The position numbers are program-made. From Xylella taiwanensis (lineage in GTDB: Bacteria > Pseudomonadota > Gammaproteobacteria > Xanthomonadales > Xanthomonadaceae), in assembly GCF_013177435.1 (NCBI RefSeq), contig NZ_CP053627.1, positions 2,340,001 through 2,372,000 of the forward strand: DNA of 32,000 bases, in the 5' to 3' direction. Shown one piece after another: positions 6,001 through 12,000 of the stretch. Every line of letters starts with the position of its first letter. Positions within the stretch are counted from its first letter, which is position 1.

Positions 6001-9000
6001 CCGCAACCTCCTGCTACTCAACCCACTATGCCTGCCCCTGATCGCAGGTAGCATCGCTTGGTTACGCGGCAGAACACCCGGCCGCTGGTTCGATCTCATC
6101 CTATGGATCAACACCGCCTCCAGCGTCACCGCCCTGCTTGCATACTGGCTACCCGCCTATACGCAACGCAATCTCTCATGGATCGGACTGTTACTTCCGA
6201 TCCATCTCGCCCTGGCCTGGACACTGCACCGGCGTATCACCACCCCAACCCAACAGCAAAAATGACCCTCACCCAGGCTCCACATCGCCCTTATTCCGAG
6301 AATCCAGCGTGTGTAGTCACCTGCGCGTACTACGACGCACGACACCATCGCCATAACATCCACCTGGACCGTATCAGTGAAGAATTGCATCGCGAAAACA
6401 GCTTCATCTGGGTCGGACTCTACGAGCCCGACCCAACCGTATTACGCAAACTCCAAGAAGAATTCGGCCTCCACGACCTGGCCATCGAAGACGCCTTGAA
6501 AGCACATCAGCGCCCTAAAGTTGAAAACTACGGCAATTCATTATTTATCGTCGTCAACACCGCACAACTGATCGGCGAACGCATCTGCTACGGCGAGACA
6601 CACGCCTTCCTCGGCACACGTTTCCTCATCATCGTGCGCCACGGCGCCTCGTTATCGTACGCACCAGTGCGCGCACGTATGGAACGCGATCCCATGCTGC
6701 TCGGATGCGGCCCTGCCTTCTGCCTATACGGCGTGCTTGATTTCATCGTCGACAACTATCTACCGATCATGGACGAATGCCGTGAAACATTGGAACAACT
6801 AGAACAAGATATTTTCTCTGAAAATTACCAGCGCCAAACAGTCATCCGGCTCTACGAACTCAAACGCGAAATCAATAAAATGCGTCTCGTGGTTGCGCCA
6901 CTCCAAGACGTACTCGCACACCTAACCCGCAACCCCGAAACACTACTGCCCCAAGACGTCAGCATCTATATGCGCGATGTCCTCGACCATGCCGTCCGGA
7001 TTAACGACGCCATCGACACATTACGCGAAATGCTGGGCACCGCACTGAGCGTCAATCTGTCAATGGTGACCCTCGCCCAGGGAGAAACGGTCAAACGCCT
7101 AGGCGCCTGGGCCGCCCTCCTCGCCGCACCAACCCTGGTCACCAGCTGGTACGGCATGAACTTCACCCACATGCCCGAACTCGACAAACCTTACGCCTAT
7201 ACACTCCTTGTCGTCGGCGTCACCGTGTCCTGCCTCCTGCTGTACAGACTCTTTAAACGCGTCCATTGGCTGTGAAATAAAACACAGCAAAAACACCCTG
7301 CAATACAACCATCCATCGCCATCATTGCACTGAAGTGAGTGGCTGACACAACCGCTCAACTGGCTACCGGCAAGAAGTCAGATCGCCCCCCGCATCCACG
7401 TTGCCGTAGCTGGAATGGATACGCATGTTGCCATTGAACGCGGCAATAACGTTTCCCGTATCGCATCCAGAACCTCACAAACCCAAGGGTGAAGCAATGA
7501 GCACCTGCAAACGAAGGAACATGAGTGGAAAAACTCCACCTGTGTGGCCACCACATCGCTACCGCCCCAAGACCCATCTTCCAGTGAGAAGGCGAAGTGC
7601 AACTCGAGCGAACACTTGGAACACTGCAGAAAACCACCGTGACTACACATGCACATAGCGCAGCCCATGAGCGCGCGCGCATTCCCGTGATCACACGCAC
7701 ATTTCTTTGAGATTTACTGTATGTTATGAAAATTCGTGACAGCGCTCCGCTATTTACAACGATCGATAACAACGTTGCCAAACGACACAGAATACCTGCG
7801 TAATAAAACACACAAAAAGCACGGCACGACGCCGAAAAAAGCTAATCAATCCAAGGAATACACAATGAAAAACGCTTATATCATCCCGCTGCTAGCCGCT
7901 GGAACCTTAACGATCCTCACCGGCTGCGCCACAAAACGATATGGAAGACTACAACCGCTGACCAGCTACGAAACGAGTCACTACAATTGCAACCAGATCG
8001 CCTTGGAGTTGGCAAAGATTGACGCTTTCGAACAACAAGTCGCACAACAAGCAAAGTTCAGCGGCATGTCAGTGGCCAGCTTCCTGGGAGATTTCGGCAT
8101 CGGTAACGTTCTCGAACGGAATGAAGCCATCAAAACAGCCAAAGAACGTCGGACACAACTCATGATGGCTCACTCAACCAAAGGCTGTGACAACCAACCA
8201 CAACCCAAGCAACCCAAAGCGACACCCGCCCCTTCCCAGGGCGGTTAACACGACAAACAAAGTCAACGTCTGACCTACCCAAGAAGGCTTCCGGCTGTGC
8301 AGTCCCCTGCACAACCCACATGAAGCCCACCTGCCGCTCGGTCTTCGCGATCGCCAGCGGCACCCTGCGCTGCTCGACACCTCGGGCAGCGCCCCCATAA
8401 GTGCTCCCATCGTACCGTTGATGCCAGCACTTTCGACTTCCCTCCACTCGGGATAGCCAACCATGTTGCGGCGTTGATTTTCCACTTCAGTACACCTGAA
8501 GTGACATGCCCCTCGGTGGTGTAACGGCACGTGGTACGGCACTCCCCGCTGCGATGCCCAGAAAAGAGGCGAATAGCACGTCGCTTTTGTCCATATCACT
8601 GTCATCGCCCGGCCTAAGGCATCACACCGACGCTCACTGTTTTTGGATGACCACCGATTGCAAGATGCCATCCATCAGCTTGCGGGCGCGTTGGTAATCC
8701 TCGGTGTTCTGTTGCCGGGCGGCTTCGATAAAGTTGAAGTTGACGGTGATGTAGTAGCCGCTGCCGCCAATCGGGGTCATCCAGGTTTCTACGCCATCAC
8801 CCACCGGCGTTGGGATACGTGCCCGGTACCAGGTCCAGGCGTTACCCCAGCGGGTTTCGGTACGTGGGGGCTCTAAAAAACGATTGGACTTGTAAGCACG
8901 ATCAGGAGCGCTGACCCAGGCAACCGTTCTTTGAATATGCGTCTGGATACTTTCGCTGGCGGCGCTGCGGATGCCAAAACCGATGTAGTTGCCCCCCGCA

Positions 9001-12000
9001 AACTGTGCCTCGCATAACGCATTGAACTCCACCCCGGCGACTTCCTTTTTCACCGTGCCATCGGGGTGGGGGGTGCTTCTGTAATACGGGTAGCCGATGA
9101 CATGGGCATATATTCCAGCGACTATCGGTGGACGATCTCCTCTGTTGACCACAATCCCCGGGTTACTGGAGCCATCTCGATATGACTTCATCACCACCTG
9201 CACATTGTCAGGTGGGGAGCCGGGGTAACAGCGGAAGATATTGATGCCATTGATAAAGGCATGCTTGACCGTGTATTGGCCTAAAAAATCCACCTTGAAG
9301 GATTCCAGGCTCAGGTCGCGGTTCTCCCAGGGGCCGGCCATCATCGGTTTGCCGGTGTGGGAATCGATGACGGGGCCGGGTCCGCTGCATGCCAGCAGTA
9401 CGCTGCTGGCAAGTATCAGGACACCTAGCTTGATGCGGCGGTGCATGGACATTACCGCGCTCACTGTTTTTGGATGACCACCGATTGCAAGATGCCGTCC
9501 ATCAGCTTGCGGGCGCGTTGGTAATCCTCGGTGTTCTGTTGCCGCGCGGCTTCAATAAAGTTGAAGTTGACGGTGATGTAGTAGCCGCTGTCGCCGATGG
9601 GAGTCATCCAGGTTTCCACGCCATCACCCACCGGCGTTGGGATACGTGCCCGGTACCAGGTCCAGGCGTTACCCCAGCAGGTTTCGGTCCGCGGGGCCTC
9701 CAAAAAAGCGCGATTGGACGGGCGACCCTGATAGGACTCATTGATCAAATCCGTCACCCTCTGAACCTTTGTCTGAATACTTTCGCTGGCGGCGCTACGG
9801 ATGCCAAAACCGATGTAGTTGCCCCCCGCAAACTGCGCCTCGCACAACGCATTGAACTCCACCCCGGCGACTTGCTTTTTCACCGTGCCATCGGGCTGGG
9901 GGGTGTTTCTGTAATACGGGTAGCCGATGACCTCTGCATACATATCGAGAGGACGCGGTGGAAGCCCTTTACTAGTCAAAATAATCGCCGGGACATCTTT
10001 TCCATTACTCAGCCGCTCCATCACCACCTGGACATTGTCAGGCGGCGAGCCGGGGTAACAGCGTTTGATATTGATGCCATTGATAAAGGCGTGTTTGACC
10101 GTGTATTGGCCTAAAAAATCCACCTTAAAATATTCCAGGCTCAGGTCGCGGTTCTCCCAGGGGCCGGCCATCATCGGTTTGCCGGTGCGGGGATCGATGA
10201 CGGGGCCGGGGCTGTTGCACGCCAGCAGCAGCAGCTGGCTGGTGAGGAGCAGTACACCTACGTGGGTGCATCGGTGCATGGGGGTTATTCCGGTGGGATG
10301 AGCCGCTGGCGCAACTGCTGCAGTTGTTGTTGGCGGGAGGTACTTGCAGTGGGGGCGGCCGGGGCAGCGGGTGACGTCAGCATACCTGGGGTGCTGTCGA
10401 GCTGCTGTTGCCAGTAGGCCGATTGATCCAGGAGGCGTTGCAACTGGGCCAGCTGGGTGGCGACGGGATCCTCTGGGCGCCGGGTGGCCTGCCATTGCTG
10501 CAACGCTACCATGGTCTGATCGTGACGCTTACGGTTCATCTCATCGATATCCAGGCCGGCATAGCTGAACACCCCTTCAGGATTGACGTTGTCCGGATGG
10601 CTGCCCAGGGCGGCGGTGCCGCCGCTGCTGTGCACCGAGTAGTTGGTCTCAAAGATCGACTTTAATTCCTGCAAACCCGCGGTCCCCGGATAGCCACCAA
10701 TAATATGGGCGACAAAGTCATTGGACGGTGACCAGAAGCCGGGTTTGATATCCGTCACCTTGGCCGCGACTCCGGAGAGACGATCCTTTTCCGCGGCAGG
10801 GTTGTTGACGAACACCTCTAATTTCGTATCCCCTAACCCAAGTGCTGCGAGCACATTGAGCGCCCCGGTTTCGGTCATGGTGCCGCGGCTATGACCCACA
10901 AAATTTACCGGGTTGGTGTACTTATGGGTTGCGCTGTTATACATCAACGTCTCCGCCACCTGGGCCTGGAGCCGTGAGGCCGGGCTGACCACGCGCCCAT
11001 TGCTGACCTCCATCAGCTTCTCCAGGCCGGCCACGATCAGTTCCCCCACAGTATGGGTGGGCTGGGTATGCACCACGTAGGTGGTGTTAACGTAGGTTTC
11101 GCCTGTTTCCGCAATTTTTGTTCTGTCTTTATTTGTCGGCGTCATCTGCAAGCCTAGTTCCGCAGCGCGGCGCAACAAGTTGCTGATGCCGTTGCCGAAC
11201 ACGGTGCTGTTTTTCTTCTCTTCGTCCGCCAGGGCGCGCAGCGCATCCAAGGTCACCGGGATCGCTTGGATATTGGCTACGCCGCCGGCCAGGGCCCAGC
11301 GGCTTTGGTCGGTGAGCAGGTCATCGTTGGGGCCGCGGGTGCCGGCGATGAACTCGGCGACTTTGGTCGCGTCCAAGGTGCGGTTGGCGTCGTGGATGGT
11401 GTCTGTCAGGTCGTTGACGGCCTGCTCGCGGAGGCGTTTGTCCGACCAGCCCGGATGGGCTTGCCGCAGGGCGGCGGTGCGTTCTTCCACCAATGTGTTG
11501 TTGGCTGCATGGTCGTTGGTGCAGGGTTGGCTGACGCAGAACACCTTCTCAAGGGTCGGGCTGAGGATGTTGCTGAGGCCTTGGTCAATCAGGATGCGGC
11601 CGCTGTCGGCCAGTAAGGCGCCGGCCTGGCTGCGGTGCTGTACGTCAGCCTGCAAGGTGCCCAGGTCGGTGGCCGCCAGAGGGGTGTGGGCCCCATCCGG
11701 GTCACGGCGCAGGGTCGCCAGGGGGGCGGGATCGCCGCCGCGCAGCACGATGTTAGCCGCGCTCACCACCGCTTCGGTAGTGCTGCGGTCGTTGACCTGA
11801 CGATCAGCGCTGCCCATGTGTTGACCAATCAGGGTTCTGCCGAGGCTGTAGATCGGAAGCTGGCTGTTGCCCTGGGAGAGGCCGCTGACCAGGTCGCTGC
11901 TCAGGGTGAAGCCGGAGGCACTCGCACCGGCATTGTGGTGGTTGTCCACGGTGCTGTGGCCCATGCTCTGGGTGGAGAGCTTTTGCAATGCCTGAGGGGC

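What the first reader, a model, noticed from the sequence alone, without database searches (positions are those of the whole stretch)
8628..10281. Tandem lipoprotein paralogs with a near-identical backbone and two hypervariable cassettes
Seen: the two genes are almost identical at the DNA level over the signal/lipobox-proximal region, a central block and the entire 3' ~250 nt. The shared 3' protein sequence is ..GNAWTWYRARIPTPVGDGVETWMTPIG.SGYYITVNFNFIEAARQQNTEDYQRARKLMDGILQSVVIQKQ. They diverge sharply in two short patches. Patch 1 is about 8889-8948 in A versus 9720-9778 in B (RTVAWVSAPDRAYKSNRF versus RVTDLINESYQGRPSNRAF). Patch 2 is about 9102-9188 in A versus 9932-10018 in B (KSYRDGSSNPGIVVNRGDRPPIVAGIYAH versus ERLSNGKDVPAIILTSKGLPPRPLDMYAE). 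Inference: this mosaic is what gene conversion of a duplicated gene combined with diversifying selection on a binding surface would produce. One example would be one immunity protein for the resident toxin and one for a variant toxin carried by competitors. Neither protein matches a family I recognise.
Basis: partly seen in the sequence, partly recalled or inferred. Interest (0 to 1): 0.7.

Follow-up and report, generated by a model that had tools for sequence, protein, structure and literature searches.

The report
Tandem mosaic immunity-like lipoprotein genes
Two neighbouring lipoprotein genes of the plant pathogen Xylella taiwanensis, nearly identical except for two swapped-in variable patches, are most likely periplasmic antidotes to a lipase-like toxin at the tip of the adjacent haemagglutinin. 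This would give a function to a protein family (DUF769) that has none on record.

Summary
Genes A (8634-9446, minus strand) and B (9461-10279, minus strand) share three DNA blocks at 91-95% identity. Two patches of about 50-57% identity interrupt them (0 of 5000 permutations cluster as strongly).

Both genes are full-length members of Pfam DUF769 (PF05590) and carry lipoprotein signal peptides. They lie 5 nt after the stop codon of a two-partner-secretion haemagglutinin (TpsA, Hxf-like). Its last ~260 residues form a domain with no Pfam family, an invariant GHSRG motif, conserved Asp and His, and an alpha/beta-hydrolase-like topology.

In every locus fetched (Xylella fastidiosa, a second X. 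taiwanensis locus, metagenomes), DUF769 genes follow this C-terminal (CT) domain. They alternate with orphan CT fragments or form arrays of 2-6 copies. In Variovorax, Herbaspirillum and a metagenome, remote CT homologues are each followed by a DUF769-like secreted protein; two of the three were confirmed by hhalign. A Ralstonia copy without the CT sits next to a known immunity gene.

The patches are old alleles (dS 0.8-1.4 against 0.18 in the backbone). Patch 1 has two classes shared across species, and the patches reassort independently.

Best reading (about 0.7): periplasmic immunity lipoproteins for a polymorphic hydrolase toxin. Immunity itself, positive selection and surface exposure were not shown.

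The parts
8634..9446 (-). Gene A: DUF769 lipoprotein, 270 aa (MHRRIKLGVLILASSVLLAC|SG...). An alternative start at 9452 gives the 272-aa form found in other assemblies.
   Evidence: ORF. Pfam PF05590 at E 2.2e-117, 391 bits against a cut-off of 21. 100% identical to AF72_02795 of Xylella taiwanensis. Lipobox census. AF2 model with pLDDT 85.
9461..10279 (-). Gene B: DUF769 lipoprotein, 272 aa (MHRCTHVGVLLLTSQLLLLAC|NS...). Its start codon lies 5 nt after the TpsA stop codon.
   Evidence: ORF. Pfam PF05590 at E 5e-110. Identical to EWS78813.1 / AXI84245.1 of X. taiwanensis.
8874..8942 (-). Patch 1 of gene A (aa 169-191), allele class 'PD' (..VSAPDRAYKSNRF..). It covers the C-terminal half of helix 167-179 and the following loop.
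   Evidence: Secondary structure and pLDDT of 69-87. It is closer to X. fastidiosa PD-class alleles (29% different) than to gene B (64% different).
9701..9772 (-). Patch 1 of gene B (aa 170-193), allele class 'TDL' (..VTDLINESYQGRPSNRAF..).
   Evidence: The same allele occurs in paralogue P0004 at the second X. taiwanensis locus. The class is shared with X. fastidiosa.
9099..9191 (-). Patch 2 of gene A (aa 86-116): beta-hairpin 82-100, a loop and short strand 108-111.
   Evidence: pLDDT of 87-94. It falls in one of the two family-wide peaks of column entropy.
9929..10021 (-). Patch 2 of gene B (aa 87-117).
10285..11220 (-). C-terminal (CT) domain of TpsA: a putative Ser-Asp-His alpha/beta-hydrolase (VFGNGI...GHSRG...NDFV...YSVHSSGG) followed by a Q/P-rich tail and the stop codon. 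This is the proposed toxin that the DUF769 proteins neutralise.
   Evidence: GHSRG is invariant, and D168 and H197/S198 are nearly invariant, in alignment A3. There is no Pfam family. The domain occurs only at C-termini of 2000-3900-aa haemagglutinin-repeat proteins or as short orphans; 46 representatives among 1.8 billion proteins. The AF2 model shows a strand-GHSRG-helix elbow. The top fold matches are all alpha/beta-hydrolases, at E 0.01 or weaker. This is the only diverged part between otherwise 99-100% identical TpsA paralogues.
10285..18873 (-). Main TpsA (Hxf-like haemagglutinin) reading frame, 2862 aa.
   Evidence: Fil_haemagg_2 hit.
18833..20203 (-). N-terminal TpsA reading frame (ESPR signal peptide and TPS secretion domain). 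It is separated from the main frame by a frameshift in a C10 run (18848-18857).
20227..21969 (-). TpsB outer-membrane transporter (POTRA_2, POTRA_3, ShlB).

Best explanation
A and B are two alleles of a periplasmic lipoprotein immunity protein (family DUF769). They protect the cell against the hydrolase toxin domain at the C-terminus of the neighbouring Hxf-like TpsA, which is built like a CdiA effector.

Proposed mechanism:
- TpsB exports TpsA. By analogy with E. coli CdiA, the C-terminal part stays in the producer's periplasm until cell contact and is then delivered into the periplasm of a neighbour (inferred).
- The last ~260 residues form a Ser-Asp-His alpha/beta-hydrolase-like domain with a GHSRG motif. 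It is presumed to attack an envelope ester or lipid substrate from the periplasmic side. The motif and topology are shown; the activity and substrate are inferred.
- DUF769 proteins are exported by Sec, lipidated at the lipobox cysteine and, with Ser or Asn at position +2, probably sent to the outer membrane. There they bind and block the hydrolase (inferred).
- The two variable patches are the likely toxin-contact and specificity elements. Patch 2 is a hairpin and loop; patch 1 is a helix end and loop.
- Several alleles per genome broaden protection against the CT alleles of the cell's own two TpsA loci and of competitors.

Proposed evolution: CT-DUF769 modules form recombining arrays. Gene conversion keeps the backbone uniform, while old patch alleles persist and are reassorted independently. 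The B-A tandem is such an array from which the intervening orphan CT has been lost. The same D-D junction ends the X. fastidiosa arrays.
For: Position.
- B starts 5 nt after the TpsA stop and A starts 14 nt after the B stop. No promoter-like site lies between them.

Module organisation.
- At the syntenic X. fastidiosa locus (CorA/Lnb/CorC flank) the order is Hxf-D-CT-D-CT-D-CT-D-D.
- Neighbouring genes there overlap by 4 nt or lie about 12 nt apart.
- The orphan CTs start at query position ~92, so they lack the N-terminal VFGNGI strand. This is the pattern of orphan cdiA-CT/cdiI modules.

Arrays without toxins.
- Five DUF769 genes follow the second X. taiwanensis TpsA.
- Six follow a metagenomic TpsA.

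Conserved pairing across classes.
- CT homologues at 28-31% identity occur in Variovorax, Herbaspirillum and a JGI metagenome.
- Each is followed by a 270-315-aa protein with a signal peptide. The Variovorax and Herbaspirillum proteins have a clear lipobox.
- hhalign against the DUF769 alignment gives probability 97.5% (E 6.6e-12) for Variovorax and 96.5% (E 7.9e-10) for Herbaspirillum.
- The metagenome protein (L018) was judged DUF769-like from shared motifs only.

Orphan copy among immunity genes.
- A DUF769 lipoprotein on the Ralstonia solanacearum megaplasmid has no CT partner. It sits beside a PoNi immunity gene, DUF596 genes and a PT-VENN orphan CT.

Compartment.
- 54 of 56 family members have a lipobox.
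- Two cysteines (C73, C145) are invariant.
- Distant CT homologues carry conserved cysteine pairs.
- All of this fits an oxidising, periplasmic site of action.

Polymorphism on both sides.
- TpsA paralogues are 99-100% identical over ~1700 aa but only 80-87% identical in the last 300 aa.
- DUF769 variability is concentrated in the same two patches family-wide: entropy 1.6-1.8 against 0.67 elsewhere.

Selection.
- The backbone is under purifying selection (omega 0.15), so both copies are functional.
Against: - No experiment or binding prediction links DUF769 to the CT domain. The immunity role rests on gene context alone.
- Co-variation between a CT and its adjacent DUF769 is weak. Within X. 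fastidiosa the Mantel r is 0.73 (p 0.003) for patch 2, but it drops to 0.26 (p about 0.05-0.07) without one outlier pair. For patch 1 it is about 0.
- Two CTs identical over their last 225 residues (L010:6274 and L010:11785) are followed by DUF769 genes with different patches.
- The hydrolase fold is modelled poorly (pLDDT 62) and fold matches are not significant (E 0.01 or weaker).
- No PT-VENN pre-toxin motif was found in the TpsA.
- Xylella Hxf proteins are known experimentally as adhesins, and no growth inhibition has been reported in the literature searched.
- Patch pN/pS does not exceed 1.
Confidence: 0.7

Rival explanations
1. DUF769 is a dedicated periplasmic helper of the hydrolase domain rather than an inhibitor. 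It could be a foldase, a holdase or an activator, like lipase-specific foldases (Lif) or the activating role reported for one Tli protein.
For: It is encoded directly downstream of a lipase-like domain and is membrane-anchored in the periplasm. The pair is conserved across distant taxa. A preprint reports a T6SS phospholipase that needs its immunity protein for activation (title and abstract listed).
Against: Arrays of 5-6 DUF769 genes behind a single CT and an orphan copy without any CT in Ralstonia make no sense for a chaperone. They are typical of immunity genes. Hypervariable patches are not expected in a foldase. Lif proteins are alpha-helical (own knowledge), whereas DUF769 is beta-rich.
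Confidence: 0.1
2. DUF769 proteins are variable outer-membrane or surface lipoproteins. They would serve as partners or receptors for Hxf-mediated cell-cell aggregation or kin recognition, or as antigenically variable surface proteins.
For: Hxf proteins mediate autoaggregation. Most family members have Ser at position +2 after the lipid-modified cysteine, which is compatible with outer-membrane sorting. Variable patches with old, balanced allele classes also fit recognition molecules.
Against: The linkage is to the CT hydrolase domain specifically, not to the adhesin body. It holds for free-standing orphan CTs and in free-living beta-proteobacteria. The Ralstonia copy lies among immunity genes.
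Confidence: 0.08
3. DUF769 is itself a toxin or effector domain. A table in PMC11630599 lists 'DUF769' as the annotation of E. coli CdiA-CT toxin type 1.
For: That table entry.
Against: I could not verify the entry. There is no DNA match in 5,426 E. coli genomes and nothing in that paper's supplements. The other paper that mentions DUF769 describes it as an Hcp-like N-terminal domain of the E. coli Usp protein, which does not match this Xylella lipoprotein family. Free-standing lipoproteins in tandem arrays under purifying selection do not look like CdiA-borne toxin domains.
Confidence: 0.03
4. The tandem pair is a recent duplication with no function of its own. The patches would be relaxed surface loops drifting neutrally, and the adjacency to TpsA would reflect co-amplification in a recombination-prone region.
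For: Patch pN/pS is about 0.8-1.0, compatible with neutrality. The region is highly recombinogenic, with hybrid and truncated modules.
Against: Synonymous divergence in the patches is 4-7 times that of the backbone, so the patches are older than the backbone and not simply drifting since a duplication. Discrete patch-1 classes persist across species. The backbone omega is 0.15. The pairing survives at about 19% identity across proteobacterial classes.
Confidence: 0.05

Closest known systems
Pfam DUF769 (PF05590), 'Xylella fastidiosa protein of unknown function'
   Same: Both proteins match over the full model length, far above the gathering score. Homologues in the public protein collection are almost all from Xylella.
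   Different: The family has no assigned function. Here it is tied to a partner domain, extended to remote members in Variovorax, Herbaspirillum and Ralstonia, and given a proposed role.
cdiA-CT/cdiI toxin-immunity modules of contact-dependent growth inhibition, including orphan arrays (own knowledge of the CDI literature; general CdiA model as in the introduction of PMC11630599)
   Same: The gene follows the variable C-terminus of a TpsA exported by a TpsB. Arrays alternate 5'-truncated orphan CTs with the small downstream gene. TpsA divergence is concentrated in the CT. Loci also hold other orphan modules (Endonuclease_NS_2, DUF596, Imm45, PoNi).
   Different: No VENN pre-toxin motif was detected. 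The CT variants are alleles of one family rather than unrelated toxins. The putative immunity protein is a ~250-aa exported lipoprotein, not a small cytoplasmic protein. Toxin-free tandem arrays of 2-6 immunity-like genes occur. Inhibition and neutralisation are untested.
T6SS Tle phospholipase effectors with periplasmic Tli immunity (lipo)proteins (own knowledge; see also papers listed)
   Same: A GxSxG hydrolase is paired with a periplasmic lipoprotein encoded next to it. Duplicated immunity genes are common.
   Different: Delivery here is by two-partner (type Vb) secretion. There is no significant sequence match to Tle or Tli families; the only hit is subthreshold, Tle3 at E 0.072 in a distant CT homologue.
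PsbP / Mog1 / DcrB / DUF1795 (EagT6, SciW) fold
   Same: These are the best structural matches of the DUF769 model (Foldseek probability 0.99-1.0). DcrB is also a periplasmic lipoprotein (DcrB localisation from own knowledge).
   Different: TM-scores are low (0.27-0.31 on the query, 0.36-0.50 on the targets) and identity is 6-13%. This is a partial fold resemblance only, with no functional inference.
Lipase-specific foldases (Lif/LipH) (own knowledge)
   Same: A membrane-anchored periplasmic protein encoded immediately downstream of a lipase.
   Different: Lif is alpha-helical, single-copy and not polymorphic. DUF769 is beta-rich, multi-copy and has hypervariable patches.

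Membership tests
Pfam DUF769 (PF05590) | Score above the curated gathering threshold of the family HMM, over the full model | tested here: met
   A scores 391.4 bits and B 367.2 bits against a cut-off of 21, covering model positions 1-259 of 259.
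Bacterial lipoprotein | N-terminal signal peptide ending in a lipobox with an invariant Cys | tested here: met
   A has MHRRIKLGVLILASSVLLAC and B has ...SQLLLLAC. A lipobox pattern is present in 54 of 56 family members, and the other 2 are N-terminally truncated annotations. Lipidation itself was not tested.
CdiI-type immunity protein | Encoded immediately downstream of the toxin-encoding 3' end of cdiA/tpsA or of orphan CT fragments | tested here: met
   The window has gaps of 5 nt and 14 nt. X. fastidiosa arrays run D-CT-D-CT... with 4-nt overlaps.
CdiI-type immunity protein | The same immunity family accompanies the same toxin family in unrelated genomes | tested here: met
   Remote CT homologues in Variovorax and Herbaspirillum are each followed by a remote DUF769 homologue (hhalign probability 97.5% and 96.5%). 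A metagenome CT homologue is followed by a protein with the same motifs, which was not scored.
CdiI-type immunity protein | Sequence co-variation with the cognate toxin (allele-specific pairing) | tested here: inconclusive
   Mantel r for CT against patch 2 is 0.73 (p 0.003, n=10) but 0.26 (p 0.05-0.07) without one outlier. For patch 1, r is about 0. One CT allele is found with two different DUF769 alleles.
CdiI-type immunity protein | Binds and neutralises the toxin, and protects cells from inhibition | not testable with these tools
   This needs experiments or a complex prediction, and no multimer prediction was available.
CdiA-type CDI effector (for the neighbouring TpsA) | TPS secretion domain, FHA repeats and a partner TpsB/CdiB | tested here: met
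   ESPR and TPS domains, Fil_haemagg_2 repeats, and a ShlB/POTRA TpsB.
CdiA-type CDI effector (for the neighbouring TpsA) | Pre-toxin VENN (PT-VENN) motif marking the start of the CT | tested here: not met
   There is no PF04829 hit in the last 771 residues. Other CdiA lineages also lack VENN (own knowledge), so this lowers the membership claim without excluding it.
CdiA-type CDI effector (for the neighbouring TpsA) | C-terminal region polymorphic relative to a conserved body | tested here: met
   X. taiwanensis loci 1 and 2 are 99-100% identical over ~1700 aa and 80-87% identical in the last 300 aa. X. fastidiosa shows the same pattern.
Alpha/beta-hydrolase, Ser-Asp-His type (for the CT domain) | Nucleophile elbow GxSxG between a strand and a helix, with Asp and His following in that order | tested here: met
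   GHSRG is invariant and D168 and H197 are at least 90% conserved in 20 diverse sequences. The model places strand 105-111, GHSRG and helix 113-126 in sequence.
Alpha/beta-hydrolase, Ser-Asp-His type (for the CT domain) | Overall fold match to known alpha/beta-hydrolases | tested here: inconclusive
   The model has pLDDT 62. The top Foldseek matches are thioesterase TesA, cutinases and lipases, but at E 0.011 or weaker and TM about 0.25-0.35.
T6SS Tle/Tli families | Significant match to a Tle or Tli family model | tested here: not met
   The window CT and both DUF769 proteins have no such Pfam or NCBIfam hit. The only hit is Tle3 at E 0.072 in distant CT homologue P0130.

The most novel reading that the evidence does not exclude
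The Hxf haemagglutinins of Xylella, studied for twenty years as adhesins and 'antivirulence' factors, would also be contact-dependent toxins. They would deliver a previously unnamed lipase- or esterase-type domain into the periplasm of neighbouring bacteria. DUF769 arrays would be a combinatorial immunity repertoire. In it, two independently reassorting cassettes (patch 1 with two ancient classes, patch 2 with many alleles) would each read a different variable segment of the toxin. New specificities would then arise by cassette shuffling rather than by point mutation.
Probability: 0.25. Interest if true: 0.75.

Novelty: new member of a known kind. Interest (0 to 1): 0.55.

Why it matters
It would assign a function to a domain of unknown function (DUF769). 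It would also define its partner, an unnamed hydrolase domain found only at the C-termini of two-partner-secretion haemagglutinins.

It would add a periplasm-acting, lipase-like toxin with a lipoprotein antidote to the type V (CDI-like) repertoire. The characterised toxins of that repertoire that I know of are mainly nucleases and ionophores (own knowledge).

For Xylella, a quarantine plant pathogen, strain-to-strain antagonism through Hxf proteins would bear on mixed infections, biocontrol strains and the extensive recombination seen at these loci.

The two-cassette mosaic is also a clean natural case for studying how immunity specificity is stored and reshuffled.

Tried and rejected
- **Collection scans for more DUF769 loci.** Scans of genome contigs and metagenome contigs with the DUF769 alignment confirmed nothing. 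Context therefore came from exact-protein look-ups, all 12 of which were used.
- **Failed look-up.** The look-up of the Temecula1 paralogue P0075 failed. The divergent X. fastidiosa paralogues (P0069, P0075, P0078, P0079) were therefore not placed in their loci.
- **Sequence searches against solved structures.** The CT gave only noise (cytochrome b5, E 0.04). The DUF769 profile's best hit was a short stretch of origin recognition complex subunit 2 (E 0.004), which I regard as chance.
- **Family scans.** NCBIfam had no hit for A, B or the CT. Pfam had no hit for the CT even at E 10.
- **Structure of the CT domain.** The model was poor (pLDDT 62), so its fold search is only suggestive.
- **Pairwise dN/dS as a test for positive selection.** No region had omega clearly above 1. 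Site models were not available and would be confounded by recombination.
- **Toxin-immunity co-variation.** The Mantel signal depends on one outlier pair and is confounded by physical linkage.
- **The 'DUF769' annotation of an E. coli CdiA-CT.** I found no support in that paper's supplements, in E. coli genomes at DNA level, or in the protein search.
- **Plasmid search with the CT.** No match.
- **Promoter and terminator scan.** No promoter-like site between the genes, and only a weak terminator-like site far downstream at 8183-8199.

Full report
**1. What is in the sequence**

The finding covers two minus-strand genes. Gene A is 8634-9446 (270 aa) and gene B is 9461-10279 (272 aa).

The proteins are 78% identical. 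At the DNA level the similarity is strikingly blocky. Three direct-repeat blocks of 250, 185 and 213 nt are 95%, 91% and 92% identical. Two stretches of about 47-57% identity separate them.

A permutation test shows that the differences are clustered far beyond chance: 0 of 5000 permutations reach the observed maximum or variance. The repeat unit is exactly one gene long.

**2. Identity of the genes and organism**

Both proteins are full-length members of Pfam DUF769 (PF05590, 'Xylella fastidiosa protein of unknown function'), at E 2e-117 and 5e-110.

Gene A is 100% identical to AF72_02795 of Xylella taiwanensis. Gene B is identical to proteins present in 31 X. taiwanensis contigs.

Both have a positively charged N-terminus, a hydrophobic stretch and a lipobox cysteine. 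The same holds for 54 of 56 family members, usually with Ser after the cysteine. Two cysteines (C73, C145) are invariant. These are exported lipoproteins, probably with a disulfide bond.

**3. Surroundings**

Upstream on the same strand lie a TpsB transporter (20227-21969) and a large haemagglutinin-type TpsA. The TpsA reads as two frames, 18833-20203 and 10285-18873, which overlap at a C10 run.

B starts 5 nt after the TpsA stop codon, and A starts 14 nt after the B stop codon. No promoter-like site lies between them.

The last ~260 residues of TpsA match no Pfam family, even at E 10. They contain VFGNGI...GHSRG...NDFV...YSVHSSGG.

An exhaustive HMMER search of 1.8 billion representative proteins found only 46 relatives. 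The domain lies at the extreme C-terminus of 2000-3900-aa proteins, or stands alone in short proteins. The larger fragments that I scanned carry haemagglutinin repeats.

In an alignment of 20 diverse members, GHSRG is invariant. An Asp and a His-Ser follow in the canonical order of a Ser-Asp-His triad.

The AF2 model is weak (pLDDT 62). It does place GHSRG at a strand-turn-helix elbow. Its best fold matches are all alpha/beta-hydrolases (TesA thioesterase, cutinases, lipases), but at non-significant E-values.

I therefore treat 'serine hydrolase of the lipase/esterase kind' as well supported by motif. The full fold is not proven and the substrate is unknown.

**4. Gene context elsewhere**

This is the strongest evidence.

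- **Syntenic X. fastidiosa locus.** This locus has the same CorA/Lnb/CorC flank as the window. Its order is Hxf-D-CT-D-CT-D-CT-D-D, where D is a DUF769 gene. Each CT there is a free-standing ~290-aa copy of the hydrolase domain that lacks its first ~90 residues. Neighbouring genes overlap by 4 nt or lie about 12 nt apart.
- **Second X. taiwanensis locus.** Five DUF769 genes in tandem follow a TpsA. Further downstream are an orphan CdiA fragment with an Endonuclease_NS_2 toxin domain and several DUF596 genes.
- **Metagenome contig.** A TpsA is followed by six DUF769 genes.
- **Another assembly.** An orphan CT is followed by one DUF769 gene.
- **Other genera.** A profile search with the CT alignment reached homologues at 28-31% identity in Variovorax sp. 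N23, Herbaspirillum sp. 1173 and a JGI metagenome. In all three, the next gene encodes a 270-315-aa protein with a signal peptide. The Variovorax and Herbaspirillum proteins have a clear lipobox.
- **Remote homology confirmed.** Profile-profile comparison shows the Variovorax and Herbaspirillum proteins to be remote DUF769 homologues over their whole length: probability 97.5% (E 6.6e-12) and 96.5% (E 7.9e-10). I judged the metagenome protein DUF769-like from shared motifs only.
- **Ralstonia.** A tblastn search of plasmids found one DUF769 lipoprotein on the Ralstonia solanacearum CFBP2957 megaplasmid, with no CT partner. It lies in a haemagglutinin locus, directly after a PoNi immunity gene and near DUF596 genes and a PT-VENN orphan CT.

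A two-gene module that survives from ~19% to ~100% identity, alternates with 5'-truncated toxin fragments, accumulates in toxin-free arrays and sits among known immunity genes has the genomic signature of a toxin-immunity pair.

**5. Nature of the mosaic**

Between A and B, the backbone has dS 0.18 and dN 0.027 (omega 0.15). Patch 2 has dS 0.82 and dN 0.80. Patch 1 has dS 1.36 and dN 0.57. The patches are therefore not just fast at amino-acid level. Their synonymous sites are 4-7 times more diverged, so they are older sequence embedded in a younger, homogenised frame.

Family-wide, the same two regions are the entropy peaks: 1.6-1.8 bits against 0.67 elsewhere in the mature protein.

Backbone distances cluster by species: 0.08 within X. 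taiwanensis against 0.156 between species. Patch 1 falls into two discrete classes, '...VSAPDRxYKSNR-F' and '...TDLIN..ESG..RAF'. Both classes occur in X. taiwanensis, in X. fastidiosa and in more distant relatives. Patch 1 of A is closer to X. fastidiosa alleles of its own class (29% different) than to B (64% different).

The patches reassort. P0004 combines B's patch 1 with another copy's patch 2. Patch-1 and patch-2 distances are uncorrelated within X. fastidiosa (r 0.02).

Among closely related alleles, pooled pN/pS is 0.79 for patch 2, 0.99 for patch 1 and 0.29 for the backbone. Constraint is clearly relaxed, or mixed with positive selection, in the patches. Omega above 1 is not shown.

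The toxin side mirrors this. Paralogous TpsA genes are 99-100% identical for ~1700 residues and 80-87% identical in the last 300. The differences fall in a few short segments.

**6. Structure**

The AF2 model of A is good (pLDDT 85, pTM 0.79). It is beta-rich with three helices.

Patch 2 covers a well-ordered hairpin, a loop and a short strand (residues 82-111, pLDDT 87-94). Patch 1 covers the C-terminal half of helix 167-179 and the following loop, which is the least confident part of the mature protein (pLDDT about 69).

The patches are thus neither disordered linkers nor, judging by their polar, Gly- and Pro-rich composition, core.

Fold search gives only partial resemblance to the PsbP/Mog1/DcrB/DUF1795 fold, with TM 0.27-0.31 on the query. 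No solved structure is related by sequence.

**7. Does toxin allele predict immunity allele?**

From 15 unique adjacent CT-to-DUF769 pairs, CT distance correlates with patch-2 distance within X. fastidiosa (r 0.73, p 0.003). It does not correlate with patch 1.

Without one divergent pair, the patch-2 value is r 0.26 with p 0.05-0.07. Physical linkage could also produce such a correlation. One CT allele occurs upstream of two different DUF769 alleles.

This test is inconclusive. Frequent recombination within arrays probably scrambles gene order, and a genome may only need the right set of alleles, not the right order.

**8. Interpretation**

The best explanation (confidence about 0.7) is that A and B are periplasmic lipoprotein immunity proteins against the hydrolase CT of Hxf-type TpsA proteins. 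They would be kept as two alleles because the species carries more than one CT allele and meets others.

The B-A tandem corresponds to the D-D end of the X. fastidiosa arrays, that is, a module array that has lost its orphan CT.

- **Shown:** family membership, lipoprotein signals, the mosaic and its age structure, the conserved linkage to the CT domain, and the triad motif.
- **Inferred:** hydrolase activity and substrate, a periplasmic site of action, binding and neutralisation, and the patches as interface.

Rivals are a foldase or activator role, a surface recognition role, a toxin role and neutral duplication. Each explains fewer of the context observations (see the rival list).

**9. Comparison with what is known, and novelty**

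The system works like a cdiA-CT/cdiI module with orphan arrays, and like T6SS Tle/Tli pairs in chemistry and compartment. It fails the VENN test and has no sequence link to Tle or Tli families.

In 7.7 million PMC papers and 0.34 million bioRxiv preprints, only two mention DUF769, and neither treats it as an immunity protein. Searches on Xylella haemagglutinins and CDI found only general statements that Hxf proteins are CdiA-like adhesins.

I rate the finding a new member of a known kind: a new toxin-immunity family within polymorphic toxin systems of the two-partner secretion type. It has an unusually clear two-cassette mosaic.

Noticed in passing
window 18848-18857 (minus strand C10 run; ORFs 18833-20203 and 10285-18873 overlap here): The TpsA gene is split into two overlapping reading frames at a run of ten C. 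In X. fastidiosa the orthologue is one 3480-aa ORF (L011). This could be a sequencing error in a draft assembly, a pseudogene, or slipped-strand phase variation of the haemagglutinin.
   Followed up: partly
window 7865-8248 (+): A small convergent ORF encodes another predicted lipoprotein (MKNAYIIPLLAAGTLTILTGC|ATK..., about 127 aa). It has no Pfam family and only sub-threshold NCBIfam hits. It lies between gene A and the CorA gene.
   Followed up: partly
L008 10892-11875 (X. fastidiosa; proteins P0088 and P0089): A DUF769 gene is cut within patch 2 and continues into an unrelated Gly/Ala-rich C-terminal sequence, directly before DUF596 genes. This hybrid is present in dozens of X. fastidiosa subsp. 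multiplex sequences. It looks like a recombination junction between the DUF769 array and the next orphan module.
   Followed up: partly
L002 10862-20822 (second X. taiwanensis haemagglutinin locus): After five tandem DUF769 genes comes a 982-aa orphan CdiA fragment with an Endonuclease_NS_2 toxin domain. Several small genes follow, including four DUF596 genes. This is a classical orphan toxin/immunity island in the same genome.
   Followed up: no
L023 7932-9813 (Ralstonia solanacearum CFBP2957 megaplasmid NZ_CP115953.1, unannotated in PLSDB): An orphan DUF769 lipoprotein (34.6% identical to A) lies directly after a PoNi immunity gene. It is downstream of a haemagglutinin 3' end, two DUF596 genes and a PT-VENN orphan CT. 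No GHSRG CT domain was found anywhere in the plasmid collection.
   Followed up: yes
L017 2893-10120 (Herbaspirillum sp. 1173): The locus carrying the remote CT/DUF769-like pair has an HlyC-family acyltransferase gene between tpsB and tpsA, as in lipidated class IV CdiA systems. The TpsA appears fragmented (838, 94 and 436 aa). Imm45 and DUF6985 genes follow.
   Followed up: no
Proteins P0097 and P0125 (X. fastidiosa orphan CTs; alignment A3 columns 300-412): Some orphan CT genes contain an internal duplication of the segment from NTTYQAYTKP to GHSRGTM, giving two nucleophile motifs. This is evidence of unequal recombination inside the arrays.
   Followed up: no
(collection scans): Scans of genome contigs and metagenome contigs with the DUF769 alignment confirmed no relative, although Xylella species should be represented. 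The relevant genomes may be masked or absent in those collections.
   Followed up: no
PMC11630599, Table 2: 'DUF769' is listed as the domain annotation of E. coli CdiA-CT toxin type 1 (strain DEC9E, EHW54111.1, activity unknown). I found no E. coli relative of the Xylella DUF769 family by protein search or at DNA level, so the entry may refer to something else or be an error.
   Followed up: partly
window 10288-10440, and the 3' ends of all CT genes (for example L001, L010): Every CT ends in a conserved Gln/Pro-rich tail (...WQQQLD..P....SRQQQLQQLRQ.L.P) just before the DUF769 start codon. It is conserved from Xylella to the metagenome TpsA (L005). Its role (linker, secretion signal or translational coupling) is unknown.
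   Followed up: no
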